IMG/VR virus record: IMGVR_UViG_3300029705_000054
Span: 1,687-65,686 of that record
Source: a virus
Taxonomy: Duplodnaviria; Heunggongvirae; Uroviricota; Caudoviricetes
Strand: one strand, 5' to 3'
DNA length: 64,000 bases
Shown: positions 945 through 63,907 of the stretch, piece by piece
Position numbering within the stretch: the first letter of the stretch is position 1
How the letters are laid out: each line of letters starts with the position of its first letter
Program-made: the position numbers and the translations under genes
Notes under the pieces: model-generated
What the model was told of the DNA's origin: nothing
What the model saw: only the letters and a program-made list of their open reading frames with translations
Database searches by the model: none

Positions 945-969
945 TCTATCCACTATCAAGAGGTGAGAT

Positions 970-21108: not shown

Positions 21109-21112
21109 TATA

Positions 21113-22303: not shown

Positions 22304-22307
22304 ATAT

Positions 22308-23326: not shown

Positions 23327-23518
23327 GCCGAGATGGTGGAATTGGCAGACACCCTGGACTTGTTGGCTTAATTTAAGAGGTAAAATAGGAAGCCTAGTAT
23401 TGATATATCGAACAAGACCGAGAACAGCATCCAAATGTAAGTTCGAATCTTGCAGTCAGCACCAAAAATCCAGTGTTCAGAGATGAGCGTACGGGTTCGA
23501 GTCCCGTTCTCGGCACCA
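23327..23518 (+). tRNA. tRNA-Leu (anticodon TAA), type II, split after anticodon position 34 by a 103-nt tRNA-like insert. Exons are 23327..23361 and 23465..23518
   Basis: 5' exon: gccgaga tg gtg gaattggcaga cac c ctgga ctt. 3' exon: aaaa tccag, long variable arm, acggg ttcgagt cccgt tctcggc a cca. The two halves are fully complementary and give the anticodon loop cttaaaa. Confidence 0.5.
23362..23464 (+). ncRNA. tRNA-like insert inside tRNA-Leu(TAA): acceptor-like stem gttggct/agtcagc, T-arm-like aag ttcgaat ctt, ends ..agcacca
   Basis: Seen directly in the sequence. It occupies the anticodon loop of the outer tRNA. Confidence 0.45.
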
Positions 23519-23691
23519 ATAACCGACGAAAGCCAGACTCGGTATATAAGTTAGTGGCGCTTCAAGTGGTAGGTTGTGTGTAAACCGATTAAGAAGAGAA
23601 AACGCAAGTGGAACACACATTAGTATTAGGTGCCTACTCGGGGAATACAGGTGGTAGGATAAATGTGACGACCCAGCCAGCCTAATATTAT

Positions 23692-23780
23692 AGAGGATTG
23701 GGTGAGCAGGCTTAAACCAGTGGTTTGCTAAACCACCGAGGGTAATACCTCCACTAGTTCGAATCTAGTATCCTCTGCCA
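23692..23780 (+). tRNA. tRNA-Ser (anticodon GCT), type II
   Basis: Acceptor agaggat/atcctct, loop ttgctaa, long variable arm, T-arm actag ttcgaat ctagt, CCA. Confidence 0.6.
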
Positions 23781-25082
23781 GCTCTCGTAACAACAGCGAG
23801 GCTAAAGGTGAAAATCCCAAAGGTTGAAATGTTGTAGGTAAAGTTTTCCACCGCCGTATCAAAGAGTGGCGTTTGTGCACAGCGAATAGTGCAATCGTAG
23901 CAGTCTTTCAAGGCGCCATATGGGACTGCGCAGAGTACGATAACCTCTGCATTATATGGAGGATGATGCCGGACGGCAAAGCAGCGACGGGAATTCCAAA
24001 GTAGGTTCGACTCCTACAGGCTCCACCAAGGGGTGATTCGTTTGCCACACGAATCCGTAAAACCAAGCGTTAATGGTTATTTACAATAGGTGCCACGAAG
24101 CCGAAGATGGAGGTCGACAGCCACTGCAGGATGTGCCAAGGTTTGAAGAAATGCGTCCAATGAAGTCTTAGGAAGTTTAGAAGCAGCTGTGGTTAACTGG
24201 AGTTAGATGAATAGCCTATTTTGTAATATTTATGACGACCTCTGGAGGGGATGTTCCCCTCATATTAAGGAGTGAGTAGAGAGCGAGGCGGCAGACGCTA
24301 TATAAACAGTGCTGGTTATACTCGGTGAGACTTATATCCGAAAGGCAGCGGTGGGCCAAACATCCGCTGGAGTTTCGCCTCCAAGATGAAGTGCGAGATT
24401 TATAAAGATAGCTTAGTAATAGCGCAGGTTTATCCAACAAGGCTATGAAAGGCGCGGGCCCAGCTTCCCGCATCTAAAAGCTGGAATATAGAGAATGTAG
24501 TGTAACAGTAACACACCGCATTTGGGATGCGGAGTAGCGGGGCAGCACCGACATTTTCTGCCATTTTAAATCAACGCCTTGATGCTGCCAACAAGCATTA
24601 CTCGGCGCCTCGTAAAACATCAGAGTTTGGAGAGTGATTCTCTTGTTGGATATAAAAACTCTCCCTCTCTTTCCTATGGGGAATGGGACTGCATGGAGTG
24701 GTCGTCTGCTTTGCAAGCAGAAGTTCAGATGAGATCGTTACTCATATTCTCCACCATTAAGTTTGAAGGTAGCTTAGTAAAAACCTATCAATCTATTGTG
24801 TTTACTCGTAGCAAAGAAAAATGAGTTGCAGAGAGCTTTTGTCCTAACCACCATTAGGCAAAAGCAAACTCCAAAGGTTTTCATTGATTTTTATTAAAAA
24901 ATATGATATAATATTTATGTAATAAAGATAAGAAAGGAAATAAAGCAAAATGATAAATAGAGAACTTGCAATACTTAATCGTATTAGTATTCTTTAGCGC
25001 GATGCCGCTAATGGAAATATAATCAATAAACTCAAGCGAAAATATAGAGCTATTCAAAAAGCTAACTAAGTAAATAATTATA

Positions 25083-25236
25083 TGAGCCAGTAGCTCAGAT
25101 GGAAGAGCACGTGACTTGTTTGAGTATGTTTAATTGGTAAAGTCTGGGGCTTAGTCGGCTTTAGGTTGTTAGTTCGAATCTAACCTCAAGCACCATTAAT
25201 CACGGGGTCGCGAGTTCGAATCTCGCTTGGCTCACC
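25083..25236 (+). tRNA. tRNA-Lys (anticodon TTT) split after position 34 by a 78-nt tRNA-like insert. Exons are 25083..25116 and 25195..25236
   Basis: 5' exon: gagccag t a gctc agatggaa gagc a cgtga ctt. 3' exon: ttaa tcacg gggtc gcgag ttcgaat ctcgc ttggctc a cca. The spliced loop is cttttaa. Confidence 0.55.
25117..25194 (+). ncRNA. tRNA-like insert inside tRNA-Lys(TTT): 7-bp acceptor stem gtttgag/ctcaagc, T-arm gttag ttcgaat ctaac, discriminator A and CCA
   Basis: Seen directly in the sequence. The interior lacks a clean D-arm and anticodon arm. Confidence 0.45.
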
Positions 25237-25924
25237 ATAAGAAGGAGTAATATGAATAGTAAAGATAAAGGCAATATTGGTGAGGCAGTTGTACTTGCTG
25301 AATTTGTTAAAAATAACATTTAGGTAGCAATCCCTTTTGGAGATAATGCTCGTTATGATTTGATAGCAGAGTTTAATGGAAAATTAAATCGTATTCAAGT
25401 AAAGTATTGTAATCAACAAATTACTGAAAATAATTCTATTGCCTGTCCTTGTGCAAGCAGTACAAACCATACTACCAATAAACATTATAGCACTTACGAG
25501 AATGACATAGATTATTTTTGTTTTTATATCGTAGAATGGAATGAAATTCTTATTCTGCCAATTGAAGAAATTGGTACTAAAAAAGTAATTACTTTTAGAC
25601 AAGATCCTCCAAAAAATAATCAAACTAAAGGGATAAATTTGGTAGAAAATTATCGATTAATTGATTTTCTAAAAAATTTATGATATAATATATATGTAAG
25701 AAATAAAGCGATGCAATATAAACTCCTGACCTGAGTTTCCATCAACAAATTCTCGATTCAAAATTGCCCGAAAGGGGTCGCTAATCGTAATAACATTAAC
25801 TCCGTAGTGAAACGGTAACTTAGGTTGTTCACAAATCTTGTACAAGATTAAAGGAGGAAGGTTGAGTAATCGCCTTTGGAATAGTGCAAATCACTCCTAT
25901 TAGTTAATGTAATTAAGATATTAT

Positions 25925-25996
25925 TGGGGTGTAGCCAAGTGGCAAGGCATCAGACTTTGACTCTGACACCCGCTGGTTCAAATCCAGCCACCCCAG
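25925..25996 (+). tRNA. tRNA-Gln (anticodon TTG) with a U1-A72 pair and G73. No encoded CCA
   Basis: tggggtg..tcaga ctttgac tctga..gctgg ttcaaat ccagc cacccca g. Preceded by a class-B promoter and a ~230-nt structured leader. Confidence 0.6.
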
Positions 25997-26081
25997 GTCG
26001 CACTTAATCAACTACCTCCACGTGGTGTGCGATGGGTTAAGCTAAAAGTTGATAATAAGTATAAAAAGGAGCTATTTAAAT

Positions 26082-26723
26082 ATGGCATACATTTATCAAA
26101 TTACCAATGATATAAATGGTAAAATATACATTGGTAAAACAGAAAAGTCTATAGAAAAACGTTGGAAAGAGCATTGTAGTGATTATCAAAAGGAAAGATG
26201 CAAGGATCGTCCTTTATATCGAGCAATAAACAAATATGGAATTGAACATTTTCATATAGAATTGCTTGAAGAAACAGATAATCCTTCTGAAAGAGAAATC
26301 TTTTGGATTGAGAAAAAACAATCATTTAAAAATGGTTATAATGCTACTTTAGGAGGAGATGGAAAACGTTATTTAGATTATGATTTAATCTATTCCACTT
26401 ATGAAGTTTTGCAAAATGCAACAGAAGTGGCAAAAAAATTAAATATTTCAGTAGATAGCGTATATATTGTTATTCATCAACGAGGAGGCGTATTAAAAAC
26501 TGCTCAAACAATTAATAAAGAGTTGTTTAGCAAAGCTGTAAAAATGTTTGATAAAAAAACTAATGAATATATTCAAAGTTTTTCTTCTTTAACAGATGCT
26601 TCTCAGTATTTAATAGATAATAATTTAACATCTTCAGTGAAAGTAAAAGGTATTTCAACGCACATTCGAGAGTGTGCAAATGGAATTAGAAAATCTGCTT
26701 ATGGTTTCATTTGGAAATGGTAG
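26082..26723 (+). CDS. GIY-YIG homing endonuclease (no internal TAG)
   Basis: MAYIYQITNDINGKIYIGKTEKSIEKRWKEH and a C-terminal NUMOD-like region. Confidence 0.65.
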   Translation: MAYIYQITNDINGKIYIGKTEKSIEKRWKEHCSDYQKERCKDRPLYRAINKYGIEHFHIELLEETDNPSEREIFWIEKKQSFKNGYNATLGGDGKRYLDYDLIYSTYEVLQNATEVAKKLNISVDSVYIVIHQRGGVLKTAQTINKELFSKAVKMFDKKTNEYIQSFSSLTDASQYLIDNNLTSSVKVKGISTHIRECANGIRKSAYGFIWKW

Positions 26724-26904
26724 GCTGATTAAAATATAACCGTTAACACGGATTAGTGACTAAACTACTCCCGACTCAGATCAAGGTGCGGTTCACCGCG
26801 ATATGGTAACGAGGTATGGAGCAATAGCGGAAAACGGTATATAAAGAAGCGAAGTAAGTCACCTTCAGTTGGCGCTACTGAAGTAAACCTCACAGGCGCA
26901 ATAT

Positions 26905-26979
26905 GGGAGCTTAGCTCAGAGGCAGAGCGCAACCCTGTTAAGGTTGATGTCGAGATATCGTAATTCTCAGTTCCCTCCA
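26905..26979 (+). tRNA. tRNA-Asn (anticodon GTT)-like with an atypical T-loop (atcgtaa)
   Basis: gggagct ta gctc..caacc ctgttaa ggttg..agttccc t cca. Confidence 0.45.
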
Positions 26980-27049
26980 AGTACGAGACTTTTCATGGTT
27001 TTCCTCCCTTCAGCGGGTTGGTTGTTACCGCAAAATCAACAACCTTTAT

Positions 27050-27125
27050 GCCGACTTAGCCGAATGGCATAGGCGTTAGTCTTAGGAACTAAAATTTCTG
27101 GGTTCGAATCCCAGAGTCGGTACCA
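27050..27125 (+). tRNA. tRNA with anticodon TAG (reads CUA/Leu) but a class-I fold with a short variable arm
   Basis: gccgact ta gcc gaatggcata ggc g ttagt cttagga actaa aattt ctggg ttcgaat cccag agtcggt a cca. Confidence 0.5.
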
Positions 27126-27642
27126 TGGAGCTACTTCCAAGCCTTGAGCAAATGTAGATGACTTCTGGAGCATTCAGGATTATAAGAGTGCTAACCACGA
27201 GCTGACCTCGCAGCACGAGCACAAAAGTGTCAGGGTTTTTATAACAGGGATTGATAAATGCCAGTGTTATAATATCCTTAATATTGATGAAAAGTTTATC
27301 TATAAGTGAATAACCTTGATTTCATTGAGTATTTTGAGGCGAATACTGCTGGATAATCCAGAGTAGGCTTGAGAGAGCGCCCACGAAAATAAACTGAAAT
27401 CAAATGCCGAGAAAATCGTGGATTTCGTCCACCCGAAGAGTAGCTACGGTGAAATAAGTAGGGTGCGATTGGCGCCGAGGATGTGGCGAGGTTCTGGTAG
27501 ACCAATTAAAAATGTCTAAGCCAGATGTAGATTGAAAGATGAAACGGTTATTTACTCGAATTGAGGATGGTAAGCAAATACCACGCCCAAAAGAAAACAA
27601 TGAGCGGTTGGCTGACCTAAAGCTGTCACCTCTTTAATATAT

Positions 27643-27727
27643 GCACCTGTCGCATAGCGGTCGATTGCACGCGCCTTGTAAGCGCGAGACTCTGTCCACA
27701 TTGGTCCAAATCCAATCAGGTGCTCCA
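27643..27727 (+). tRNA. tRNA-Thr (anticodon TGT)-like with a 13-nt variable region and TCCAAAT T-loop
   Basis: gcacctg..cgcgc cttgtaa gcgcg..attgg tccaaat ccaat caggtgc t cca. Confidence 0.4.
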
Positions 27728-28256
27728 TATGGCGTCAAGAAGAAAGCCTTCTCGTGGCGACGCTGTGAGCCTTAAAAGCGACTAATTTCTTCAATTATAG
27801 TCTCACCTCCTTTCTGAGACAAGGCGGCGCACGCCTGTAAGTCGTCGACATTTGAAGATGCAAAAGTGTTGCGGAGAGCATACTCTGACAAACCTCTGTG
27901 GCTGGGTCATAAGCTCGGGTAACTGACACATTCCGCCCTTGGAAATCCGTTAGTGTCGCTAAACGAGGACTACGGGAAAGGTCTTCGTTTCTTCCCATTT
28001 TCACTTGATATGCAGAACTGTGCGAAGGTCGCACCTTCGGAAAAGATCAATAGGAGCAGGAATCAGGTGATCACTGCGCAAATATCAAGTTAATCTATAA
28101 TAATGCTTAAGAGAGCCTCTGCCCCAAACACAGCGCTCTGTCAAAAGAAGCCGTTTGCACGGTCTCGCAAGAGATAGTACTTGGTAGGGTTGGGAAAAGT
28201 GTGGATACAATTAACTACTCCACAGGAAATTCAATTGACAATCTTAAGCGCCCTCT

Positions 28257-28331
28257 GCAGGTGTCGTATAACGGCTATTACTTCTGCCTTCCAAGCAGAA
28301 GATCTGGGTTCAACTCCCAGTACTTGCTCCA
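28257..28331 (+). tRNA. tRNA-Gly (anticodon TCC)
   Basis: gcaggtg..tctgc cttccaa gcaga agat ctggg ttcaact cccag tacttgc t cca. Confidence 0.55.
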
Positions 28332-28421
28332 TATAGGCTGGCTCCTACAGCCTATCATTTTTCTACCCTTCCTTTCTGCTTACCCCCGCGATGTACGTTG
28401 TCGCGGGGGCTTTGATAAAAT

Positions 28422-28496
28422 GGCGCGCTAGCCAAATGGTTAAGGCGCAGGCCTGCAAAGCCTTGATTCCGCGTTCGAGTCGCGGGCGCGCCTCCA
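28422..28496 (+). tRNA. tRNA-Cys (anticodon GCA)
   Basis: ggcgcgc ta gcc..caggc ctgcaaa gcctt..ccgcg ttcgagt cgcgg gcgcgcc t cca. Confidence 0.6.
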
Positions 28497-47107: not shown

Positions 47108-47182
47108 TGGGGAGTCGTCGAAAGGTCAAGACCGTGGTCTCTAAAACCACAGACGTAGGTTCGATTCCTACCTCCCCTGCCA
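47108..47182 (+). tRNA. amber suppressor tRNA with anticodon CTA and a tRNA-Gln-like architecture (U1, G73, 3-bp D-stem with large D-loop)
   Basis: tggggag tc gtc gaaaggtcaa gac c gtggt ctctaaa accac agac gtagg ttcgatt cctac ctcccct g cca. Closely parallels the tRNA-Gln(TTG) at 25925. A strong hairpin terminator follows (47190..47218). Confidence 0.7.
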
Positions 47183-49761: not shown

Positions 49762-52104
49762 ATGGATAATAATAAACAAATAAACATATGTGATGAATTA
49801 TCAAATAACTTTATAGATTTTAGTTATGAAGCCAATTCATGTCGTGCTTTTGCTGACGCAAGAGACGGCTTAAAACCAGGTCAACGCGCTTGTCTTTGGG
49901 AAATGTATCATAAAGGATATCTTTCTTCTAAACCAACAGTAAAAGGCGCAAAAGTAGCTGGCGCAGTATCGGGTAACTGGTGGCCGCACGGAGATGTAGC
50001 TATCTATGAAACTTTTACTCGTATGTCTCAGCCATGGATTAATAATGTTCCAGAAGTAGACTGGAAAGGAAATAATGGTTCTCAAATTATTCCTGACTCA
50101 GCCGCTTCTTCAAGGTATACAGAAACTCGTCTTTCAAAAGCAACTGAAGAGGGTATGTTCCATGCTATTAAAAAGCGAGTAGTAAAAATGATTCCCAACT
50201 ATTCTGAAGACGATGAATGGCCAGAGGTTCTTCCTGCGATTTTCCCTCGCTTAATGGTAAATGGATGTCAAGGAATAGGAAGCACAATAGCAAACGTATG
50301 GTTGCCGCATAACTTAACTGATATAGGAAATGTTATTCTTAACTATATTGAAACTAACACTGTTGATTTTACAGGCTTAGCTCCAGATTTTCCTACGGGA
50401 TGTCAGATAATTAATAAAAACGATTTAGCGCCTATTTATGCAACAGGCAAAGGCAAAGTCACACTTAGGGCAAGAGCAGATATAGTAAAAGACCATATCT
50501 ATTTTAGAGAACTTCCTTATCAGGTGTATGTTGAGCCTCTTATTGAAAAAATTAAAGAGCTTGCATCAAAAGGCGAAATCACTGGCGTAGATGCGGTTTA
50601 TAATAGAAGTAGTAAAAAGGGTATTGAAATAGATGTAGAATGTGGTGAAAATCCCGATGCAGTATTAAAACAGCTGTATTCTAAGACTGATTTACAAAAA
50701 TCATATAGCGCAAACCAATGGGCGCTTGTGGGTAAAACTCCAAGACTTCTTACTCTTAAAGACTATTGTGAGATTTATGTAGACCATAATTTACTTTGTA
50801 TTCAAAATGAAGCACAGTTTGATTTGGAAAAGGCGCAAGATAGACTTCATATCGTTGAAGGACTTCTTCATGCATTGGAAGATATCGATAACATTATCGC
50901 GCTCATTAAGACATCTGCAAGTGCGGCGGCCGCTAAGGATGCGTTAATCGCCACCTATAAGTTCTCTGAAGCACAAGCAAAAGCTATCGTAGATATGAAA
51001 CTTGGTAAGCTCGCTGGACTTGAAAAGGTTGAGCTGAATCAAGAGGCAAACGAACTCCACAAAGAAGTTGAGGAATTAAATACCCTCTTCCTTAACGAAA
51101 CCAAGCAGCGTGAAGTATTGCGCGAACGCCTTACCGCATTCATTAAGAAATATGGTGACTCACGCAGAACTGGTCTTGAGCAGATCGAGCTTCCCAAGGT
51201 AGAGAAGGAAATCGAAACCGTAGTACCTGAAGACTGCGTAGTAATAGCGACACAAAATGGCGATATTAAGAGAGTGCCCGCCGCATCTTTTAAAACGCAA
51301 AAGCGCAACGGCAAAGGCGTAAAGACAACAGATGACGCAATCCTTGACATGATTTCTACCAACACTGTCGATACTTTAATGTTCTTTACTGATAAAGGTA
51401 AAATGTATCGTCTATTGGTAGATAAAGTTCCTACTGGCACTAATGCTTCGAAGGGCGGACGCATCGGCGCCTTGATTAATATAGAAGCAGATGAAAAAGT
51501 AGTAGCTATGACTTCACTATATCGCAAGAGTCAAGCAGAATATGTTATCTTTATTACAAAGCAGGGACTTTTCAAAAAGACAAAGTTAGAAGAATATCTC
51601 CAAACAAAACGAGCAACAGGTATTACCGCAATTAAGTTTAAGGAAGGTGATTCACTTGCTACTGTTACTTTTGCTAATGAAGAAGATTTTATCATTCTTA
51701 CAAAACAAGGAATGAGTATTCGCTTTGAAACGAAAGAGATTGCTCCTATTGGGCGCGTAACCTCTGGTGTAAAGAGCATTAAATTAAACGAGGGTGATGA
51801 GGTTTTAACTGGTTTGCCTATTAAGCATAAGACTGATACTCTTGCAACATTTAGCGCGAATGGTATGGGGCGCAAGACCTTGCTTGAAGAATTCCCTGTC
51901 CAGGGTAGAGGTGGCAAGGGCCTAAAGATAGGAAGTGGAGACCTGGCTGGCGCAGCGTTGATTAGCGATGAAGATAATCTTCTCATAGTCGGTTCGCCAA
52001 ATAGCATCTGCATATCAGCCACTGAAATTCCGCTCTTAGCGCGCACGGCGCAAGGTAATATAATGATTAAAAATAGTACCATAAAAGGAGTAATTAAAAT
52101 ATGA
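49762..52104 (+). CDS. type II DNA topoisomerase DNA-cleavage subunit (GyrA/ParC/T4 gp52-like)
   Basis: N-terminal DGLKPGQRACLWEMY signature of GyrA/ParC, 780 aa. Confidence 0.7.
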   Translation: MDNNKQINICDELSNNFIDFSYEANSCRAFADARDGLKPGQRACLWEMYHKGYLSSKPTVKGAKVAGAVSGNWWPHGDVAIYETFTRMSQPWINNVPEVDWKGNNGSQIIPDSAASSRYTETRLSKATEEGMFHAIKKRVVKMIPNYSEDDEWPEVLPAIFPRLMVNGCQGIGSTIANVWLPHNLTDIGNVILNYIETNTVDFTGLAPDFPTGCQIINKNDLAPIYATGKGKVTLRARADIVKDHIYFRELPYQVYVEPLIEKIKELASKGEITGVDAVYNRSSKKGIEIDVECGENPDAVLKQLYSKTDLQKSYSANQWALVGKTPRLLTLKDYCEIYVDHNLLCIQNEAQFDLEKAQDRLHIVEGLLHALEDIDNIIALIKTSASAAAAKDALIATYKFSEAQAKAIVDMKLGKLAGLEKVELNQEANELHKEVEELNTLFLNETKQREVLRERLTAFIKKYGDSRRTGLEQIELPKVEKEIETVVPEDCVVIATQNGDIKRVPAASFKTQKRNGKGVKTTDDAILDMISTNTVDTLMFFTDKGKMYRLLVDKVPTGTNASKGGRIGALINIEADEKVVAMTSLYRKSQAEYVIFITKQGLFKKTKLEEYLQTKRATGITAIKFKEGDSLATVTFANEEDFIILTKQGMSIRFETKEIAPIGRVTSGVKSIKLNEGDEVLTGLPIKHKTDTLATFSANGMGRKTLLEEFPVQGRGGKGLKIGSGDLAGAALISDEDNLLIVGSPNSICISATEIPLLARTAQGNIMIKNSTIKGVIKI

Positions 52105-52949
52105 TAACTGAAAATCAACAATATATGGAAACTTTGGGAGCGGAATTTTCCGCTCCCGATATCCGAGATTATCGTATTGATAGTTCTAGTCTACAATCAG
52201 AATTTCCAGCTGAATTTGAATTACCAATGCCACCTGTTAAGAATCAAGGATCAGTTGGCTCTTGCGTAGCTCATTCTATTGCTTTAGTAGCAGAATATTT
52301 TAATCAACAACAATATGGCATCGCAAATGAAATAAGCGTTGGCTATATTTATGGCAATAGAGTGCCTCCATTAAATAAAACTGCTGGCATGATTACGCGT
52401 TTTGCAATTTCCAATTTTTGCGCAGATGGCGCTCCTACATTCAATGATTTTCCATTACATTGTGAAGTCCCAGATATTATTACCGCAGTAGAAAAGGCTA
52501 AAGACTCATTGGACGCACTCGCGCGCCAATTCCGTTTTACCTCTTATATTAAAGTATCAAAAGAAAAAGAAATAAAAACAGCATTAATGCAAGGCTATCC
52601 TGTTATTATTGCAGTGGACTGGTATAATGATATGAAAGTCAAAGATGGAGTTATAACCTCTAATTTCACCCAAAAGTCTGGCGGCCATGCGATGGTGCTT
52701 TATGGTTGGGATGAAAACGGTTGGAAAATTCAAAATTCTTGGAGTGTATTTTGGGGTAATCAAGGTCGTGCCGTTTGGCCCTATGATTTTAAGTTACGTG
52801 AAGCTTATGCTATTGTTGATACTGAGACCACTCCATTAAATATTAAAAAGCCGTTTAAAACCCAAAATAAGTTTTTACGCACTTTAGTTAAAATTGCCAA
52901 TAAGATATATAGTGTCTTTTATAGCTTATGGTATAGAATAAAACATTAA
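52101..52949 (+). CDS. papain-like (C1 family) cysteine peptidase
   Basis: Catalytic-Cys motif NQGSVGSCVAHS, His in GGHAMVLYGW, Asn in NSWSVFWG. ATGA overlap with the topoisomerase stop. Confidence 0.55.
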   Translation: MITENQQYMETLGAEFSAPDIRDYRIDSSSLQSEFPAEFELPMPPVKNQGSVGSCVAHSIALVAEYFNQQQYGIANEISVGYIYGNRVPPLNKTAGMITRFAISNFCADGAPTFNDFPLHCEVPDIITAVEKAKDSLDALARQFRFTSYIKVSKEKEIKTALMQGYPVIIAVDWYNDMKVKDGVITSNFTQKSGGHAMVLYGWDENGWKIQNSWSVFWGNQGRAVWPYDFKLREAYAIVDTETTPLNIKKPFKTQNKFLRTLVKIANKIYSVFYSLWYRIKH

Positions 52950-55627: not shown

Positions 55628-55678
55628 TTAAAAAGGAAAATAAGGGGTAATTATGCAATTACCCCTTAAATTGTAAAG

Positions 55679-56662
55679 ATGATAGTATTATGCGTAATAT
55701 CAATTCTTCTTGGTGTGAGCGGTCTTGCTTATGGAGTATGGGTTAAAGCCACATCTGTAAAAGCTAATCGCTATACAGCAGAAGAAAATTAGAAACTAGA
55801 AGAACTCAATTAGTCATTACAAGCAACTCGCAAAAGCTTAGAAGCACAAAATAACTTATTGATAAAATCTAACAATGAAATTTCTCAAAAATATGAAGAG
55901 AACTGTAAAAAAACAAAAAATTCTTACGACGAATTAAATCAATTAACTCAATAGAAATTGTTGTTAATAAATGAAATTCAAAATAAGCAAATTGAAAAAG
56001 CAGGAATTGAGGCGCAAATTGCTGCTTTCAGCAGCTCTGTAGAGACAATGTCAGGTGACTTAAAGGCAGCTGCGCTCGCCTCCTTTGAACAATATTGTGA
56101 GACTCTTGATTATGAATATCAAAAACGCGAACAAGAGTTCGATATTGAAGTGGACACTCTTGATCAATTATATTTTGACAGACTTCAAGAACTTGATGCA
56201 AGAGAAAAAGGATTAATTGAAGAGCGACGTCAAGATATTGACACTCTTGTGCAATTATTTTATGATAAGCAATAGTCAATGTCTAAAGAATTACAAGAAG
56301 AAGAGGCGGCAATGCGCGCCGACCTAGACTCAATCCGCAAAGAGCTAGAAAAAATTCGTGCAACCAAGGCCGCCACAATGGAAGCACAACTTCGTGAAGA
56401 AGAAATTAAAAATCAAGCAACATTTTATACTCTTCAACTTAATGAGGCAGATAAGCGAGACGTGGCATATCTTCAAAGTATTGAATATAATCTACGCGAA
56501 GCAAGACCTTTGCGTATGCTTATATGGACTACTTTCTATAGAGATAAAGTCAATGACCTTGCGGCGCGCGTAGGTGCGTTGGGCGCCAGTGGAATATATA
56601 AGATAACACACATTGACTCTGGTATATCTTATATCGGACAAGCGGTCAATGTTGGCCGATGA
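55679..56662 (+). CDS. membrane-anchored coiled-coil protein whose C-terminus carries the first half of a GIY-YIG (T5orf172-like) motif. 4 in-frame TAG codons. Interrupted downstream by an endonuclease insertion
   Basis: TM helix MIVLCVISILLGVSGLAYGVWV, long coiled coil, then ..SGIYKITHIDSGISYIGQAVNVGR followed by TGA. Confidence 0.4.
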
Positions 56663-56860
56663 AAAACTTTACCTAGTAGCTGCTAGGGGTCGCTAACTTA
56701 TAGTGGCTAACGAGGAAAATATTTTTTAATAAAATACAATCTCGTGGGAAATTTTGATTAATCCATCTTCCATAAAAATAATATATATATGAACAACTGA
56801 TGAATATAACATTATAGGAGGCATAAAATGCAAAAATTATTTTTATCTAAGATGACACCA

Positions 56861-57775
56861 AATGACATTATTAGCGGAATTTATAAAATTAATTACCCAA
56901 ACGGAAAAGCTTACATTGGATAGGCTCAAAATATTCGAGCTAGACTTATGGAGCATAATTCTTATAGTCAAGCTGGACATGGTTCAAGAGAACTTCTATT
57001 GTGTGAGCAAAAAATGAAAGAATACAATATTATTATTGATGAGTTTGAATTACTTGAAACAGTTTCTGACTTATCGTTATTAGATGATAAAGAAAGATAT
57101 TGGATTTCCTTTTATAAAACCTATATTAAAGATGGACACGGATACAATAAAACCCGAGGAGGAGACGCTTCGGGGAAACGAGGGACTGAAAATCCTAATG
57201 CAGCTTTAAATGAAAATCAACTTAAAGAAATAATTGATTTGTTAATTAATCATACAGAGTTTTCTTTAACAGAGATAGGTAATAAATATGGAGTAGGACA
57301 AGGTACTATATTAAATATTTCAACAGGTAGAACCTATGTTAATCCAAACTTAGTTTACCCATTAAGAAAAAATAATCATGACTCAGCGTGTAAGACAGAA
57401 GTTTTAGATTATTTTTCCTCCGAAGAAGAGCTAGTTAATTTAAAAGAAGATTTATTGTATCGTTGGGATTTACCAATTCAAGGTGGTATAGATATTAAAT
57501 ATAATATTCCAATCAGGGTATTAAGAGACATTAATAATGGAAGAAAATTTGCAGAAATAGGGAAATATAGTTATCCTATTAGAGCAAAAAACATTCGCAA
57601 TAATCATAATTTAACTTTAGAGGATGTTTAGAATATTTTAGATCTGTTACGTAATACTAATACTTCTATGGATAATATTGGTGCACAATATAACATAGGG
57701 CGTTCAACTATAAGTAATATTAATTTAGGAAAAACTTATATTCTTAAAGATTATGATTATCCTGCTAGAAAATAA
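56861..57775 (+). CDS. GIY-YIG homing endonuclease (inserted element). One in-frame TAG. There is an apparent +1 frameshift relative to an RBS-proximal ATG at 56827, in a TTTT run
   Basis: ..YKINYPNGKAYIG-Q-AQNIRARLMEHN. Removing one T from ggaatttt (56876..56881) would give MQKLFLSKMTPNDIISGIYKINYPNGKAYIGQ, a canonical GIY start served by RBS taggagg. Confidence 0.5.
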
Positions 57776-57933
57776 TGGATTAATTGAAAAACCTGTATCG
57801 ACTATTCCCTAGGCCTTATGGGCGGGGAAGTAGGGCTATTATTAGCACATAGTAGTATTTTAGGAAACGAAGTACTTTAAATGCCGAAATGGTTTCCTGT
57901 AATAAAAATTACAGTAAAAAATAGTCAAAATTA

Positions 57934-58161
57934 ATGCAACATTAAAGAGCGCTGGGTAACGCATGTCAAATGCAGCTTAGGTATCGATACCCCTGTAACA
58001 AGTCAACTTTATGCATTTACAAAAGAAAAGGGTATTGATAACTTTACTTTTGAAATACTTGAAAAATGTAATATCAATGAATTAAATGAAAAGGAGAAGT
58101 TTTATATTGACCTCTATCAGACATATGATTTTGGACTGAATAAAACTCGCGGAAATAGTTA
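57934..58161 (+). pseudogene. 3' fragment of the interrupted GIY-YIG domain (..IKERWVTH..YAF..NFTFEILE..) with an internal frameshift near 58085
   Basis: Frame 1 reads CNIKERWVTHVKCSLGIDTPVTSQLYAFTKEKGIDNFTFEILEKCNINEIK*. The rest (KEKFYIDLYQTYDFGLNKTRGNS*) is in frame 2. Confidence 0.4.
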
Positions 58162-60007: not shown

Positions 60008-60973
60008 ATGAAGTACACAAAGAATTCAATTACAATTCAAGGAAGAGTTTACAGTTTTGGAGAAGCAAATGGAAGAAATATGCTTGAAGTAAAGACTGTA
60101 AAGAATGAAAAGTCTGAGAACTTCGGTAAGGAGTTTATTGCAGGAACTATCCAGGTTGCAGTAGATGAAGCAGGTCTTAATGTAATTCCTGTTCACTACA
60201 CTTTTGTAACCCCCACCACAAAGAATGGCGGCACCAACAATACCTTTACCGCTCTTAAGGCACTTATCGATGGCGGTAAGACTTGGGTAAAGGACGGCAA
60301 GGATGCTGCACCTATGGTTAAACTCGAGCCTTCTTTTGCGCTCAATGATTTCTATATCAATGAGAATGGTGAAGATAAACTTGTCTCTCAGGTAATGCAC
60401 GAGGGTGGTTTTGCAACAATCGTAAACACTCTTCCTGAGAACGAAGCAGAGAGAACTTATTTCCGCTGTGATATGGTTATCACAAATGTAACTCATGTAG
60501 ATGAAGATAAAGAGAAAAACATTGATGAACATGTTGCTCTTCGCGGTGCAGTATTTAATTTCCGTAAAGAACTTCTTCCTCTTACCTTTACAGTTAAGAA
60601 TCCTAACGGTATGAATTACTTTGAAGAACTTGGCGTGTCTGGTAGCGAGCCTGTTTACACTTGGGTTGAAGGTATTATTAACTGCAATACTGTTAAGAAC
60701 GAGGTCAAGGAAGAGACTGCATTTGGCGGCGAGTCTGTAAGAACCTTTGAGCGCAAGACTAAAGAATGGCTTGTTGTAAGAGCTTCGCAGAATCCTTATG
60801 ACTTTGGTGAAGAGGGTATTCTTACTGGAGAAGAGCTTACAAAGGCTATGCAGGATAGACAGGTTAAGCTTGCCGAGGAAAAGAAGAGAAGTGAAGAGTA
60901 TAAGGCACAGAGAAATAATCCTGTAGCAGCGCCCGCCGCTCCTCAGGCAAAAGCTGGTGGCTTTAACTTCTGA
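60008..60973 (+). CDS. possible single-stranded DNA-binding protein (OB-fold), tentative
   Basis: Highly expressed-looking gene (strong RBS). ITIQGRVYSFGE pattern and a C-terminal Ala/Pro-rich flexible tail. Architecture only. Confidence 0.3.
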   Translation: MKYTKNSITIQGRVYSFGEANGRNMLEVKTVKNEKSENFGKEFIAGTIQVAVDEAGLNVIPVHYTFVTPTTKNGGTNNTFTALKALIDGGKTWVKDGKDAAPMVKLEPSFALNDFYINENGEDKLVSQVMHEGGFATIVNTLPENEAERTYFRCDMVITNVTHVDEDKEKNIDEHVALRGAVFNFRKELLPLTFTVKNPNGMNYFEELGVSGSEPVYTWVEGIINCNTVKNEVKEETAFGGESVRTFERKTKEWLVVRASQNPYDFGEEGILTGEELTKAMQDRQVKLAEEKKRSEEYKAQRNNPVAAPAAPQAKAGGFNF

Positions 60974-60992
60974 TAAAAAGAGGTAAGTGAAA

Positions 60993-61556
60993 ATGGCAGA
61001 TTTTAATTTACTTGATATTTAGCCTCATTAGGTTTCAAGAGATATGCGCGGTTATTGCGTCTTCTTCTATGGAGACGCAAAGACCGGTAAAACTACTACC
61101 GCGACTAAATTCCCTAATCATCTTTTGGCGGCTTTTGAAAAAGGATATAATGCAATTCCCGGCGCCATGGCACAACCTATTAATAGTTGGTCTGAGTTTA
61201 AAAAATTCTTGCGCCAGTTAAAGAATGAACAGGTTAAAGCTAGATTCGAAACTATTATCCTTGATACAGCTGATATAGCCTATGACTATTGTGAGAAATA
61301 TATTTGCGCCAATGCAGTTCGTCCAGATGGCTCTATAGGCGTCGATAGCATCGGTGACATTGGTTACGGAAAGGGCTTCAAAATGGCAGCGCAAGAGTTT
61401 GATAGCGCGCTTCGTTCAATCCTTCAATTAGGATACGGCTTAGTAATTATTTCTCACGCGCAAGACAAAACCTTTAAGGATCAAAATGGCAATGAGTATA
61501 ATCAGATTGTTCCTACTCTTGATAATAAACCTCGTAATATTGTAAACCGTATGGCT
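60993..61556 (+). CDS. RecA-fold AAA_24-like ATPase, putative exon 1 (2 in-frame TAG codons at the N-terminus). It may be spliced to 62533..63021
   Basis: MADFNLLDI-Q-PH-Q-VSRDMRGYCVFFYGDAKTGKTT (Walker A), IILDTAD (Walker B), VIISHAQ. Strong RBS aaaaagaggtaagtgaaaATG. Confidence 0.5.
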
Positions 61557-62532
61557 TAACATTTTTATTTCATATTTTCGCTCTCTTAAAGAAGGAGTTG
61601 AAAGTTTTTTGAGAAAATATCCTTTAAATTTAACAAACATTAAAATAGACCCTCATGAAAAATATTATTGGCTTGGATTTTTAGCTGGAGATGGAAATGT
61701 AGCTAAAAATGAAGCCAGAGTAAGAGTTGAGTTAAAAGATATAGATAGAGAGCAGCTTGAAAATTTACAAGCATTCTTTGAATCTAATGCGCCCATTACA
61801 GAGCGTACTAATAACACTGGATGTCATGCTTTAACTGTATCTATAAACTCGGCAGAGTTAAAACGTTATTTAGCACAATATAATATAGTACCTGCAAAAA
61901 CCTCTATTTTTAGTATTCCCCTTGAAAACATTCCTAATGAATATATTTATGATTTTGCAAGAGGATTGCTAGATGCAGATGGTAGTATTCACATTAGAGA
62001 AGATAGAAACAATATTCCTAGTTTAAGTTTTGTCAGTCAAACTGAGATCTGCACAAAACAAATGCTAGAAATTTTAGAGTTTGATAATAAAGTAAGTCCT
62101 TGTGGAACCTCTGCTTATCAAATTCATAAAGAAGGCGCTGCAGTTGTACAAATTTTAAATAAAATTTATGAACATTCAACCGAGGCCTCTCGGTTGAGAC
62201 GAAAATATGAAATATATAAGGCCCTTAATGGAGCAATCCATTAAGCAAATCATGTGAATTGCTGGAAACCCCTTAGAGTTAATCAAACTACAGCATAAGA
62301 ATGAAAGAAATCTAAGTGCGAATGTTAAAAATTGATTAAATTGGGCAATCAGCAGCCAAGCTCCGAATAGGAGAAGGTTCAACGACTATCCCACTGGAGG
62401 ATGAAATTTCCTCAACAGGAGTAGGGCTTTTATAATAATATAAAAGTAGGTGAAAATCCTTTAAATCGAAGTGCATGACATCCACCGTTTAAAATGGATG
62501 AAGATATAGTCTATTCCCATTAAAATATCTTG
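61557..62532 (+). mobile_element. group I intron (candidate, phage IA-type) carrying a LAGLIDADG endonuclease ORF
   Basis: Conserved core elements seen directly: P-like gaattgctggaaacc (62256), Q aatcagcag (62346), R gttcaacgactat (62377), S aagatatagtct (62501). Confidence 0.55.
61609..62244 (+). CDS. LAGLIDADG homing endonuclease (double-motif), intron-encoded
   Basis: Motifs LGFLAGDGNV and LLDADGSIHI. Confidence 0.65.
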   Translation: MRKYPLNLTNIKIDPHEKYYWLGFLAGDGNVAKNEARVRVELKDIDREQLENLQAFFESNAPITERTNNTGCHALTVSINSAELKRYLAQYNIVPAKTSIFSIPLENIPNEYIYDFARGLLDADGSIHIREDRNNIPSLSFVSQTEICTKQMLEILEFDNKVSPCGTSAYQIHKEGAAVVQILNKIYEHSTEASRLRRKYEIYKALNGAIH

Positions 62533-63021
62533 AAAAAGAGGGTATTAAAGGACATAATAGGATATGCGAGAACTGTTGAGTCTGAGTCTGGTGAGAAATC
62601 TACAAAACTCTTTATGCGCGGAACTCCTCGTTTCGTAGCTGGAAGTAGATTTAAGTATACGCCTGATTATATTGACTTCAACTATAATGCTCTTGTTAAT
62701 GCAATAGGAGATGCTATTGATAGACAGGCGGCTGAGGATGGAACTCAATACTTCACAGATACTGGCGCCAACTTGCATACATTCGTTTCAAAAGAACTTG
62801 ATTTCGATGAACTTATGATGCAGTTTAACTCAATGATTCAAGACCTCTCGGTTCAAAGCGACGAAGAAACATTCAAAACTTATTGGCAACCTCGTATTAG
62901 TCAATGCATAGAGAAATATCTTGGTAAAGGACAAAAAGTTTCTCAGTGCTCTCGCGAACAGACAGAAGCGCTTGACCTTATTGTGACGGAACTTAAAGAT
63001 TTGATAAATACAGCTCAATAA
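62533..63021 (+). CDS. putative exon 2 of the ATPase gene (or a separate hypothetical protein with TTG start at 62530)
   Basis: In frame with exon 1 if the splice joins ..cgt atg gct | aaa aag agg.. No ATG or RBS of its own. Confidence 0.35.
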   Translation, partial: KKRVLKDIIGYARTVESESGEKSTKLFMRGTPRFVAGSRFKYTPDYIDFNYNALVNAIGDAIDRQAAEDGTQYFTDTGANLHTFVSKELDFDELMMQFNSMIQDLSVQSDEETFKTYWQPRISQCIEKYLGKGQKVSQCSREQTEALDLIVTELKDLINTAQ

Positions 63022-63119
63022 TGATTAAGTCAATAGAGGATATTATCCTCTATTGACTTTTTATTTAATTTATGTTATAATATATATATATAAAAGTATA
63101 AAAAGAGGTAAAAAGATAA

Positions 63120-63641
63120 ATGGCGAGCAAAGCAATGGTTAAATGCCTGTATTGTGGCCAGCTTTTTGATCGTAATTCTGAGCCTTGCGCCAAACCAAAA
63201 GGTAATCGTTACGCACATCAAAAATGCTATGAAACACATATGGCATCAATGTCTCAAGAAGAACGAGACTATAATGAATTAATCGAATATATAAAATACC
63301 TCTTAGGAGAGGATTTAAATCCGCGAGTATGGAAACAACTTAAGGAATATAAAGAAGTGTATAAATATTCTTATAGTGGAATATTAAAAACGCTTAAGTG
63401 GTGGTATGAATTAAAAGGTAACGATGTGGAAAAAGCAAACGGTGCAATAGGCATTGTACCTTATGTCTACAAGGATGCGTGCGCCTATTACTATGCACTA
63501 TATCTGGCGGCGGTCGCTAATGAAGATAAAGACATAGAGCATTTTCAAGTTAAGGTTAGAGAGTTCTCTATTGAACCACCTATGAGAATTGTAAAACCGC
63601 CGCGTTTGTTCAATTTAGATGATTTGGAGGAAGAGGAATGA
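63120..63641 (+). CDS. hypothetical protein with an N-terminal Zn-ribbon (CLYCGQ..C..C)
   Basis: Class-B promoter and RBS aagaggtaaaaagataaATG. Confidence 0.5.
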   Translation: MASKAMVKCLYCGQLFDRNSEPCAKPKGNRYAHQKCYETHMASMSQEERDYNELIEYIKYLLGEDLNPRVWKQLKEYKEVYKYSYSGILKTLKWWYELKGNDVEKANGAIGIVPYVYKDACAYYYALYLAAVANEDKDIEHFQVKVREFSIEPPMRIVKPPRLFNLDDLEEEE

Positions 63642-63907
63642 AAAAACATAAAGTAATTTTAAAATTCACTAAAGCTCGCTACGATTCTGATTATCTTGGC
63701 TGGTTTGAAGTAGCAGATACAACATTTTATAATTGGGCGGCTGAAGCTGAAGCTAATTTTGATGTTGTTATTAAAATTTGTAGATTAAAAAATCATCTTG
63801 ATCTTATGAAAAGTAAAATAGTATTCATTGGGTCAGATGCAAAAATAGTAGCACATGCATGGATCAATAAGCTTGGTAATAAAATTCAAAATATTAAAAT
63901 GAGGTGA
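63638..63907 (+). CDS. hypothetical protein (89 aa)
   Basis: ATGA overlap with the upstream gene. Confidence 0.45.
   Translation: MKKHKVILKFTKARYDSDYLGWFEVADTTFYNWAAEAEANFDVVIKICRLKNHLDLMKSKIVFIGSDAKIVAHAWINKLGNKIQNIKMR

What the first reader, a model, noticed from the sequence alone, without database searches (positions are those of the whole stretch)
60993..63021. Group I intron with a LAGLIDADG endonuclease apparently splitting a RecA-fold ATPase gene
Downstream of the LAGLIDADG ORF the sequence contains the four hallmark group I core elements in the right order: P-like gaattgctggaaacc, Q aatcagcag, R gttcaacgactat and S aagatatagtct. The upstream ORF (Walker A, Walker B and sensor motifs) ends ..NRMA followed by TAA exactly where an intron could begin. 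The downstream ORF (62533..) has no ATG or RBS, and it is in frame if exon 1 (ending ..atggcT) is joined to aaaaagagg. The predicted spliced ATPase is ~351 aa.
Basis: seen in the sequence. Interest (0 to 1): 0.6.

Follow-up and report, generated by a model that had tools for sequence, protein, structure and literature searches.

The report
Self-splicing intron in phage ATPase gene

Summary
The finding is real and its main reading is correct. Rfam's group I intron model hits 62177..62532 (78 bits, E 4e-18). A 211-aa double-motif LAGLIDADG gene (61609..62244) lies inside the intron. The flanking ORFs are two halves of one AAA_24/Sak4-like ATPase. Two details need correcting. (1) The 3' splice site is after G62550, not G62532. 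All intron-less homologues read NRMA|DIIGY, and a 95%-identical intron-less allele has exactly the length (1035 nt) of exons joined at 61556/62551. G62532 is the first base of the GAAA loop of a P9 hairpin that covaries in nine related introns. The intron is therefore 61557..62550 (994 nt) and the product is 344 aa, not ~351. (2) Exon 1 from 60993 contains two in-frame TAG codons. Both align to Gln in homologues, and the window encodes a tRNA-CUA, so this phage reads TAG as Gln. The endonuclease gene sits in the P1 loop; P1 is supported by covariation in four related introns. Related introns interrupt the same gene family at other sites. This is a new member of a well-known kind (phage IA-type group I intron plus homing endonuclease) and of modest interest. 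Splicing and homing are inferred, not shown.

The parts
60978..60984 (+). Shine-Dalgarno-like AAGAGGT, 8 nt upstream of the ATG at 60993 (start of the ATPase gene)
   Evidence: Sequence. The alternative ATG at 61044 has no comparable site.
60993..61556 (+). Exon 1 of the Sak4-like/AAA_24 ATPase (188 codons). Walker A GDAKTGKT is at 61071-61094 and Walker B TIILDTAD at 61251-61274. The exon ends ...AAC CGT ATG GCT (NRMA).
   Evidence: Pfam AAA_24 and phrog_124; alignment to homologues; coordinates.
61020..61031 (+). Two in-frame TAG codons (61020-61022 and 61029-61031), read as Gln
   Evidence: The second TAG aligns with Q in all 11 homologues that cover it, and the first with Q in 8 of 11 (A or K in the other three), in the motif DIQPHQVSRD. 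The intron-less allele L001 carries TAG at the same two codons.
61557..62550 (+). Group I intron, 994 nt, IA-type (P7.1 and P7.2 present). It begins with TAA in frame with exon 1 and ends with omega-G at 62550.
   Evidence: RF00028 hit. Boundaries come from DNA alignment to intron-less alleles L001-L003, L126 and L127 and from the comparative P9/omega-G architecture.
61553..61557 (+). P1 5' strand GGCU|U. The 5' splice site follows U61556 (U.G wobble).
   Evidence: It pairs with AGGCC at 62219-62223. The same register with compensatory changes is seen in L016 (GAUU|U / AGAUC), L031 (GGCU|A / UGGCC) and L041 (GGGAU|AU / AUGUCCC).
61592..61597 (+). AAGGAG ribosome-binding site of the endonuclease gene, 11 nt before its TTG start
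   Evidence: Sequence.
61609..62244 (+). LAGLIDADG homing-endonuclease gene (211 aa, TTG start), located in the P1 loop. Its last codons overlap the internal guide sequence and P2. Motif 1 YWLGFLAGDGNV is at 61666-61701 and motif 2 FARGLLDADGSI at 61954-61989. It has no TAG codons.
   Evidence: Pfam and PHROG hits. It is 42% identical to the intron ORF of L016 and about 30% identical to intron-encoded endonucleases of Staphylococcus Kayvirus and crAss-like phages. Coordinates.
62219..62223 (+). Internal guide sequence AGGCC (P1 3' strand); G62220 pairs with U61556
   Evidence: The RF00028 alignment places its P1 3' strand here.
62227..62242 (+). P2 hairpin AAUGGA-GCAA-UCCAUU
   Evidence: 4 of 5 pairs have compensatory changes among four introns.
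62249..62389 (+). 5' half of the catalytic core: P3 5' strand 62249-62256; P4 62260-62265 / 62349-62354; P5 and P5a 62268-62346; P6/P6a 62355-62378; J6/7 and P7 5' strand GACUAU 62384-62389
   Evidence: RF00028 alignment, MFE fold, RNAalifold with covariation, coordinates.
62390..62446 (+). Peripheral helices P7.1 (62390-62426) and P7.2 (62427-62446) between P7 and P3', the feature of subgroup IA
62471..62511 (+). P3 3' strand 62471-62479; P8 hairpin 62479-62500; J8/7 and P7 3' strand AUAGUC 62506-62511
62516..62542 (+). P9: CCC/GGG (62516-18 / 62540-42) plus UCUU/AAGA (62528-31 / 62536-39), closed by a GAAA tetraloop at 62532-62535.
   Evidence: Nine related introns: 100% of cells paired, 5 of 7 pairs with compensatory changes, 0 of 500 shuffles as good.
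62543..62550 (+). 3' tail UAUUAAAG ending in omega-G (G62550). The same 8-9-nt tail ending in G follows P9 in all nine related introns.
   Evidence: The junction was verified independently by protein homology in L016 and L031.
62551..63021 (+). Exon 2 (156 codons plus TAA), starting GAC ATA ATA GGA (DIIG...)
   Evidence: There are 42 synonymous against 9 non-synonymous codon differences from the intron-less allele.
47108..47182 (+). Suppressor tRNA with anticodon CUA, needed to translate the two TAG codons of exon 1
   Evidence: ARAGORN and Rfam tRNA hit of 58.9 bits. Its acceptor stem resembles the phage's own tRNA-Gln.

Best explanation
Window 60993..63021 is one gene for a 344-aa Sak4-like (AAA_24, RecA-fold) ATPase. 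It is interrupted between codons 188 and 189 by a 994-nt mobile group I intron (61557..62550) of the IA type common in phages.

Splicing. In the pre-mRNA, the last four exon bases plus the first intron base (GGCU|U) pair with the guide sequence AGGCC about 660 nt downstream to form P1. A free guanosine attacks after U61556. The terminal G62550 then occupies the G-site and the exons are ligated to ...CGU AUG GCU|GAC AUA AUA... This restores the conserved NRMA-DIIGY segment of the ATPase core.

Endonuclease. The large P1 loop carries a free-standing gene with its own ribosome-binding site. It encodes a single-chain, double-motif LAGLIDADG homing endonuclease. The enzyme is expected to cut intron-less alleles of co-infecting relatives at or near ...AATCGTATGGCG^GATATCATTGGC..., so that repair copies the intron into them (homing).

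Translation. Exon 1 also needs the phage's tRNA-CUA, because the phage reads TAG as Gln.

Shown here: the ribozyme fold and its boundaries, the endonuclease family, exon continuity, and the existence of intron-less alleles. Inferred: actual splicing, endonuclease activity and target, and homing.
For: - Ribozyme: RF00028 hit of 78.2 bits, E 3.6e-18. The core resembles hundreds of phage group I introns.
- Exon continuity: exon 1 matches phrog_124 positions 42-200 and exon 2 positions 202-316. There are 5497 homologues with E<=1e-5, and the best 120 are uninterrupted proteins of ~312-347 aa. All 12 aligned homologues read RM[A/C]|DIIGY with no insert.
- Intron-less alleles: L001-L003 are 1035 nt, exactly the length of the exons joined at 61556|62551. 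BLAST breakpoints against L001-3, L126 and L127 fall at 61555/62550-62551.
- Junction score: the AAA_24 score rises from 123.1 to 136.7 bits when the junction is moved from 62533 to 62551.
- P9 and omega-G: covariation in nine introns.
- P1: covariation in four introns with different exons.
- Other helices: RNAalifold finds 29 of 78 pairs with compensatory changes.
- Selection on exon 2: 42 synonymous against 9 non-synonymous codon differences from the intron-less allele, so it has been translated in this frame.
- Endonuclease: Pfam LAGLIDADG_3 and LAGLIDADG_1, and phrog_4645. Both motifs keep the acidic residue (GDG, ADG).
- Mobility signals: the same intron is 100% identical on eight metagenome contigs. 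L006 is identical from 61068 onward but ~11% divergent upstream. Eight synonymous differences cluster within -10..+23 of the insertion site.
Against: - There are no RNA data, so splicing is not demonstrated.
- P1 is short (5 bp), and a convincing P10 was not found (at most 3 bp, offset).
- Sequence identity alone allows the insertion to be placed one base earlier (61556..62549, giving GCG as in the intron-less allele). That placement is rejected only because it lacks U-1 and omega-G.
- RNAalifold also proposes an alternative pairing of CCCU (3' of the guide sequence) with AGGG of P9.
- The endonuclease uses a TTG start, 11 nt from its ribosome-binding site.
Confidence: 0.9

Rival explanations
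1. Same intron, but the 3' splice site is after G62532 as the first reader (and the end of the Rfam alignment) suggested. This would give a 350-aa protein with a KKRVLK insert.
For: The RF00028 alignment ends at G62532. The join is in frame. The AAA_24 model still matches in one stretch.
Against: - None of the 12 aligned homologues has the six residues.
- The intron-less allele is 18 nt shorter than this product.
- The AAA_24 score is 13.6 bits lower.
- G62532 is the first base of an invariant GAAA tetraloop in a covarying P9 hairpin.
- The Rfam alignment of this segment contains mismatched pairs.
Confidence: 0.03
2. The intron is a decayed, non-splicing remnant. The ATPase gene is then inactivated, or is expressed only as a 188-aa N-terminal fragment.
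For: No splicing data exist. P1 is short and P10 is weak. The intron starts with an in-frame TAA, so unspliced RNA yields a truncated protein.
Against: - All core helices are intact and conserved or covarying.
- Exon 2 has no start codon or ribosome-binding site, yet shows strong purifying selection (42 synonymous against 9 non-synonymous).
- The endonuclease ORF is intact.
- Identical copies occur in several samples.
Confidence: 0.06
3. There is no functional link between the parts: a free-standing endonuclease gene lies between two separate genes, an N-terminal ATPase and an unrelated downstream protein.
For: Standard gene callers annotate three separate ORFs here (171, 211 and 163 aa).
Against: The two ORFs are contiguous halves of one family profile and of every homologue. 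A group I ribozyme precisely fills the gap. Relatives lack the whole 994 nt.
Confidence: 0.01

Closest known systems
Related intron with a LAGLIDADG gene in a Sak4-like gene of IMG/VR contig 3300001605_004293 (L016)
   Same: - Same gene family: exon 1 is 80% identical in protein.
- Same intron subfamily, with near-identical P3-P9 sequence blocks.
- Same architecture: a homologous LAGLIDADG ORF (42% identity) in the P1 loop, running through the guide sequence into P2.
- The intron starts with an in-frame TAA, and omega-G lies 8 nt after P9.
   Different: It is inserted 100 codons upstream (after ...RFETI, at the Walker B region). Its guide sequence is changed to AGAUC to match that exon. Its endonuclease has an extra ~48-aa N-terminal extension. 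It is unannotated and undescribed.
Staphylococcus Kayvirus (phage K-like) RecA-family 'DNA repair protein' gene split by a LAGLIDADG 'intron-encoded endonuclease' (e.g. vB_Sau_191, OR513903)
   Same: A phage recombinase-type ATPase gene is interrupted by an intervening sequence. That sequence carries a LAGLIDADG gene ~30% identical to the one here.
   Different: The host gene is a true RecA (PF00154), not AAA_24/Sak4. The endonuclease is larger (322 aa). RF00028 gives no hit at the gathering threshold in that locus, so its ribozyme was not verified here.
Staphylococcus phage RQ1 DNA-polymerase intron (PV344601)
   Same: Closest core among deposited phage genomes: 73% identity over P7-P9, the same P7.1/P9 blocks, and the same P9-GAAA-tail-G ending with a compensatory stem.
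   Different: It has a different host gene (DNA polymerase) and a different endonuclease gene. RF00028 gives no hit at the gathering threshold in the RQ1 locus.
Classical phage group I introns: T4 td/nrdB/nrdD, SPO1 DNA polymerase, Twort orf142 (from my own knowledge, not tested here)
   Same: IA-type self-splicing introns in phage DNA-metabolism genes, often carrying a homing-endonuclease gene in a peripheral loop. A single gene can carry several introns (Twort orf142), as in L031 here.
   Different: Those endonucleases are GIY-YIG or HNH, and their ORFs sit in the P6, P8 or P9 loops. Here the enzyme is LAGLIDADG and sits in the P1 loop. A review describes LAGLIDADG enzymes as mainly organellar and archaeal (PMC3943268).
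Group I intron endonucleases in stop-codon-recoded gut phages (Borges et al., bioRxiv 10.1101/2021.08.26.457843)
   Same: A self-splicing intron with a homing endonuclease sits in an early gene of an alternatively coded gut phage.
   Different: In that case (TGA-recoded Agate phages) the endonuclease gene itself is enriched in recoded stops. Here the endonuclease gene has none, and the host exon has two TAG codons. With 7 Gln codons, the absence is not statistically meaningful.

Membership tests
Group I intron (Rfam RF00028) | Covariance-model score at or above the curated gathering score | tested here: met
   78.2 bits against 50, E 3.6e-18, full model 1-253
Group I intron (Rfam RF00028) | Conserved core helices P3-P8, including the P4/P6 and P3/P7 domains | tested here: met
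   All were located. P2, P3, P5a, P6a and P7.2 show compensatory changes among four related introns. The P7 strands GACUAU/AUAGUC are perfectly complementary.
Group I intron (Rfam RF00028) | 5' splice site after a U that forms a U.G wobble with an internal guide sequence (P1) | tested here: met
   U61556.G62220 lies within GGCU|U / AGGCC. The register is kept with compensatory changes in L016, L031 and L041.
Group I intron (Rfam RF00028) | Terminal guanosine (omega-G) at the 3' splice site | tested here: met
   G62550. All nine subfamily members end with an 8-9-nt tail closing in G after P9. Exon homology confirms the position here and in L016 and L031.
Group I intron (Rfam RF00028) | P10 pairing between the 3' exon and the guide sequence | tested here: inconclusive
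   Only an offset 3-bp AUA/UAU match was found. P10 is dispensable in many introns (my own knowledge).
Group I intron (Rfam RF00028) | Guanosine-dependent self-splicing that ligates the exons | not testable with these tools
   This needs an in-vitro transcript or RT-PCR. Indirect support: the joined exons restore the family sequence exactly, and exon 2 is under purifying selection.
Subgroup IA of group I introns | Extra helices P7.1/P7.2 between P7 and P3' | tested here: met
   The 62390-62446 region folds into two hairpins that are conserved or covarying in relatives. No formal subgroup classifier was run.
LAGLIDADG homing endonuclease | LAGLIDADG domain(s) above the Pfam threshold | tested here: met
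   LAGLIDADG_3 34.4 against 22.5 bits; LAGLIDADG_1 23.4 against 23.1 bits (marginal); phrog_4645 'endonuclease' E 4.6e-32
LAGLIDADG homing endonuclease | Two motifs in one chain, each ending in a catalytic acidic residue | tested here: met
   LGFLAGDGN (residues 22-30) and RGLLDADGS (residues 118-126), read directly from the sequence
LAGLIDADG homing endonuclease | Site-specific cleavage of the intron-less allele and intron homing | not testable with these tools
   Circumstantial only. Intron-less alleles exist. Synonymous changes cluster at the site. L006 is a mosaic.
AAA_24 / Sak4-like ATPase (PF13479, phrog_124) | Full-length match to the family profile, with Walker A and Walker B | tested here: met
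   AAA_24 136.7 bits against 27, profile 2-195/195 in one stretch across the junction. phrog_124 E 2e-45. Walker A is GDAKTGKT and Walker B is IILD.
AAA_24 / Sak4-like ATPase (PF13479, phrog_124) | Single-strand annealing or recombination activity | not testable with these tools
   The function is taken from the PHROG family name only.
Intein (considered as an alternative kind of intervening element) | Insert in frame with the host protein and containing a Hint domain | tested here: not met
   The insert starts with an in-frame TAA, and the endonuclease ORF is in another frame. No Hint domain was found in Pfam.

The most novel reading that the evidence does not exclude
The Sak4-like ATPase gene of this group of TAG-recoded gut phages may be a recurrent landing pad for one radiating lineage of intron plus LAGLIDADG units that re-target by changing the guide sequence. 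Confirmed group I introns lie at codons 88/89, ~94 and 188/189, and another intervening sequence lies at the Walker A motif. The endonuclease gene lies in the P1 loop and is read through the guide sequence and P2, so its translation and ribozyme folding would be mutually exclusive. That gives a built-in switch between homing and splicing. On top of this, the two TAG codons at the start of the host gene would tie ATPase production to suppressor-tRNA expression, while the TAG-free endonuclease escapes that gate.
Probability: 0.15. Interest if true: 0.5.

Novelty: new member of a known kind. Interest (0 to 1): 0.3.

Why it matters
- Annotation: gene callers split this gene into three ORFs (171, 211 and 163 aa in public assemblies). 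They also miss the first 17 codons because of TAG recoding. The correct product is one 344-aa recombination ATPase.
- Method: the end of an Rfam alignment is not a splice site. Homologue alignment plus covariation moved the junction by 18 nt.
- Biology: the case adds a LAGLIDADG-bearing, P1-loop-ORF intron lineage in gut phages. The same recombinase gene family is invaded at several conserved motifs.
- Possible use: the enzyme is a compact single-chain LAGLIDADG endonuclease with a defined candidate target, which may be of minor interest as a meganuclease scaffold.

None of this changes current understanding of group I introns.

Tried and rejected
- Guide sequence near the intron's 5' end (with the ORF in the P2 loop): no complementary segment was found there. 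The other AGGCC copy at 62183-62187, and GGUUG at 62192, are possible by sequence. They are disfavoured because the aligned position in L016, L031 and L041 is the one just upstream of P2.
- P10: no convincing pairing for either candidate exon 2 start.
- Close relatives of the endonuclease in IMG/VR by peptide patterns: none found.
- Megablast to deposited phages: only a 57-nt P6-P7 match to Enterocloster phages. Those carry a different intron, with an I-TevI-like gene.
- Exact spliced protein in the 15-billion-protein collection: absent, so neither an identical intron-less allele nor a cDNA was found.
- Intervening sequences at the Walker A site of relatives (L049, L050, L071, L073, L082, L083): RF00028 finds nothing at the gathering score, and nothing in L050 at E<=0.01. 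Their nature is left open.
- Second candidate intron in the window (56661..57947): no RF00028 hit at E<=1 and no nhmmer hit with the subfamily profiles.
- Absence of TAG from the endonuclease gene as a signal: rejected as not significant, with 7 Gln codons and about 0.7 TAG expected.
- Literature: no paper in the library links group I introns with Sak4/AAA_24 genes.
Full report
**Observation.** The region 60993..63021 was read and its ORFs listed. A scan of the whole window against Rfam gives a single Intron_gpI (RF00028) hit at 62177..62532 on the + strand, with 78.2 bits (gathering score 50) and E 3.6e-18. The ORF upstream of the core (61609..62244) has a TTG start and an AAGGAG site 11 nt upstream. 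It matches Pfam LAGLIDADG_3 and LAGLIDADG_1 and phrog_4645 'endonuclease'. It carries two motifs, LGFLAGDGN and RGLLDADGS, each with its acidic residue. The upstream ORF ends ...NRMA, with TAA at 61557.

**One gene, two exons.** Exon 1 alone matches phrog_124 (Sak4-like ssDNA annealing protein) at profile positions 42-200, and exon 2 alone matches positions 202-316. A search of the 5.8-billion-cluster protein collection with the joined product returned 5497 homologues. The best 120 are uninterrupted proteins of about 312-347 aa, up to 95% identical, and all carry PF13479.

**The 3' splice site is 62550|62551, not 62532|62533.**
- The DNA of the 95%-identical intron-less allele (L001-L003) reads ...AATCGTATGGCG|GATATCATTGGC... 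Its CDS is 1035 nt, exactly the length of the window exons joined at 61556|62551.
- BLAST breakpoints against L001-L003 and against two 123-135-kb IMG/VR relatives (L126, L127) fall at 61555 and 62550/62551.
- The AAA_24 score rises from 123.1 to 136.7 bits with the corrected junction.
- On the RNA side, a 25-nt block of the intron (GTAGGTGAAAANCCTTTAAATCGAA) retrieved 30 IMG/VR loci. Staphylococcus phage RQ1 was found by blastn.
- Nine of these introns share the ending ...AUAGUC-UAUU-CCC-N9-[4 bp]-GAAA-[4 bp]-GGG-UAnnAAnG|exon.
- On their alignment, the P9 pairs are 100% paired. Five of seven pairs show compensatory changes (UCUU/AAGA here, CUAG/CUAG, UCUC/GAGA, UUGC/GCAA, UCGA/UCGA, UGCC/GGCA, CCAG/CUGG). 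None of 500 shuffles reaches the observed score, and all slid registers collapse.

G62532 is thus the first base of the invariant GAAA tetraloop, and the terminal G lies 8 nt after P9, at 62550. In L016 and L031, protein homology independently confirms the same relative position as the exon junction. Sequence identity alone would also allow the insertion to be 61556..62549. That placement has neither U-1 nor a terminal G, so 61557..62550 is preferred.

**5' splice site and P1.** A scan for segments complementary to the exon 1 end found AGGCC at 62219-62223, immediately upstream of P2 (62227-62242). It pairs with GGCU|U (61553-61557), with U61556.G62220 as the wobble. The homologous position in related introns pairs with their own, different exons:
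- L016: GAUU|U with AGAUC.
- L031: GGCU|A with UGGCC.
- L041: GGGAU|AU with AUGUCCC.

These are compensatory changes at positions -3, -2 and +1. The Rfam alignment also places its P1 3' strand here. Its P1 5' strand was mis-assigned to a local look-alike because the true strand lies 660 nt upstream. The endonuclease gene therefore occupies the P1 loop, and its last codons run through the guide sequence and P2, with the stop codon at 62242-62244. L016 shows the same layout.

**Rest of the fold.** MFE folding recovers P2, P3, P4, P5/P5a, P6/P6a, P7.1, P7.2 and P8 (z = -2.7). RNAalifold on four related introns predicts 78 pairs, 29 of them with compensatory changes. P7 (GACUAU/AUAGUC) is a pseudoknot that these programs cannot draw, but its strands are perfectly complementary. 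The presence of P7.1 and P7.2 places the intron in subgroup IA, as is usual for phage introns (my own knowledge). The core resembles introns in 422 deposited phage genomes.

**Exon 1 and the genetic code.** The frame from the ATG at 60993 has a good ribosome-binding site (AAGAGGT) and contains TAG at 61020 and 61029. The second TAG aligns with Gln in every homologue that covers it, and the first aligns with Gln in 8 of 11 (A or K in the rest), within the motif DIQPHQVSRD. The intron-less allele has TAG at the same codons. The window encodes a tRNA with anticodon CUA at 47108..47182. Its acceptor stem resembles the phage's tRNA-Gln. Several other long frames run through TAG, for example a GIY-YIG gene with four TAGs inside a single Pfam domain match. 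The phage therefore reads TAG as Gln, a known feature of gut phages (bioRxiv 10.1101/2021.08.26.457843). The gene product is 344 aa.

**Signs of function and mobility (inferred).**
- Exon 2 has no start codon of its own, yet it differs from the intron-less allele by 42 synonymous and only 9 non-synonymous codons. This argues that it is translated in frame, and hence that splicing works.
- The intron is 100% identical on eight metagenome contigs.
- In contig L006, all 43 differences from the window lie upstream of 61068, and everything from there through the intron is identical. This is the pattern expected if the intron spread with flanking exon sequence.
- Eight synonymous differences cluster within -10..+23 of the insertion site, which fits co-conversion or target-site divergence. 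This last observation is suggestive only.

**Context in the gene family.** Related introns interrupt homologous Sak4-like genes at other sites: after codon 88 in L016 (RF00028 72.9 bits, homologous LAGLIDADG 42% identical), and near codon 94 in L031 and L032 (71.8-75.5 bits, no ORF). At the Walker A motif (codon ~31/32), L031, L049/L050, L071-L073 and L082/L083 carry ~1-kb inserts with HNH or LAGLIDADG ORFs. RF00028 does not recognise these inserts, so their type remains open. Conserved motifs of one gene being invaded repeatedly is a known pattern (PMC3943268).

**Comparison with what is known, and verdict.** Everything tested fits a standard mobile group I intron with a homing endonuclease. 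The nearest annotated analogue is the RecA-family gene of Staphylococcus Kayvirus phages, which is split by a LAGLIDADG 'intron-encoded endonuclease'. Less usual features are the LAGLIDADG family in a phage (reviews associate it mainly with organelles and archaea) and the placement of the ORF in the P1 loop. No paper in the searchable library links group I introns with Sak4/AAA_24 genes. The finding is a new member of a known kind. Interest is modest (0.3).

Noticed in passing
window 47108..47182; TAG codons at 61020, 61029, 17058-17661, 35142, 35919, 55790-56273, 56921 and 57629: The phage appears to read TAG as Gln. It has a tRNA with anticodon CUA and a Gln-like acceptor stem. Both TAG positions in the ATPase gene are occupied by Q in most homologues. 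Several long ORFs, including a GIY-YIG gene with six TAGs, are open only if TAG is sense. The gyrase, ligase and intron endonuclease genes contain no TAG.
   Followed up: partly
window ~56661..57947 (host gene 55670..56662 plus ~57948..58135; inner ORF 56810..57775): A second intervening sequence. A gene ending in a GIY-YIG domain is split after ...YIGQAVNVGR by ~1.29 kb that carries another complete GIY-YIG endonuclease gene. The joined halves match Pfam GIY-YIG in one stretch (32.9 bits). Relatives L126, L127 and L130 have the gene uninterrupted (...YIGQAKDIKERWVTH). Group-I-like P7 and P8 elements are visible, but RF00028 and nhmmer find nothing. With canonical U-1 and omega-G, the splice would create a TAG (Gln) codon across the junction. 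The exact sites are unresolved.
   Followed up: partly
L016 (introns after codon 88), L031 and L032 (~codon 94), L031, L049, L050, L071-L073, L082, L083 and L130 (Walker A, codon ~31/32): Homologous Sak4-like genes in other phage contigs are interrupted at at least three other positions. Two of these are confirmed group I introns of the same subfamily. The Walker A inserts carry HNH or LAGLIDADG ORFs but are not recognised by RF00028.
   Followed up: partly
L006 compared with window 60675..63118: A 98.2%-identical contig in which all 43 differences lie upstream of 61068. The intron and both flanks are identical from there on. This is a recombination mosaic whose breakpoint lies ~490 nt upstream of the intron.
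   Followed up: partly
L007 positions 937..1165: The contig matches the window's intron up to P7 (GGTTCAACGACTAT) and then continues as the 3' half of a different group I intron (RF00028 95.8 bits across the hybrid). It is either an assembly chimera through the conserved P6-P7 block or a natural recombinant. The same 57-nt block is 95% identical in five Enterocloster phages.
   Followed up: no
window 61546..61579 and 62551..62573: Eight synonymous differences from the intron-less allele cluster within -10..+23 of the insertion site, including five consecutive codons. The overall divergence is 11%.
   Followed up: partly
window 62222..62225 with 62539..62542: RNAalifold proposes a long-range pairing of CCCU, just 3' of the guide sequence, with AGGG of the P9 3' strand. 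It is kept in four introns, with one double change. It competes with the local P9 outer helix and remains unexplained.
   Followed up: no
window 30765..33242: An 826-aa ORF matches the Major Vault Protein shoulder domain (91 bits) and Vault_3 repeat domains, which is unusual for a phage gene.
   Followed up: no
window 52098..52949 and 63638..63907: Two ORFs are absent from the otherwise collinear relatives L126, L127 and L130, so they are insertions in this genome. One is a papain-like cysteine protease (Peptidase_C1, E 2e-13). The other is an 89-aa ORF with no family hit.
   Followed up: partly
window 19999..28496; also 6423..6494, 22980..23070, 23362..23461 and 25084..25234: A dense tRNA cluster: 19 ARAGORN genes and 19 Rfam tRNA hits in the window. 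Two ARAGORN calls have four-base anticodon loops (tcgt, tgga). Two Rfam tRNA hits are unusually long (100 and 151 nt) and were not called by ARAGORN, so they may be intron-containing tRNA genes.
   Followed up: no
window 60008..60973: The gene immediately upstream of the ATPase (321 aa, ending ...AAPAAPQAKAGGFNF) has no Pfam or PHROG match, yet it is conserved next to the ATPase in relatives. It might be the ATPase's partner, for example an SSB-like protein.
   Followed up: no
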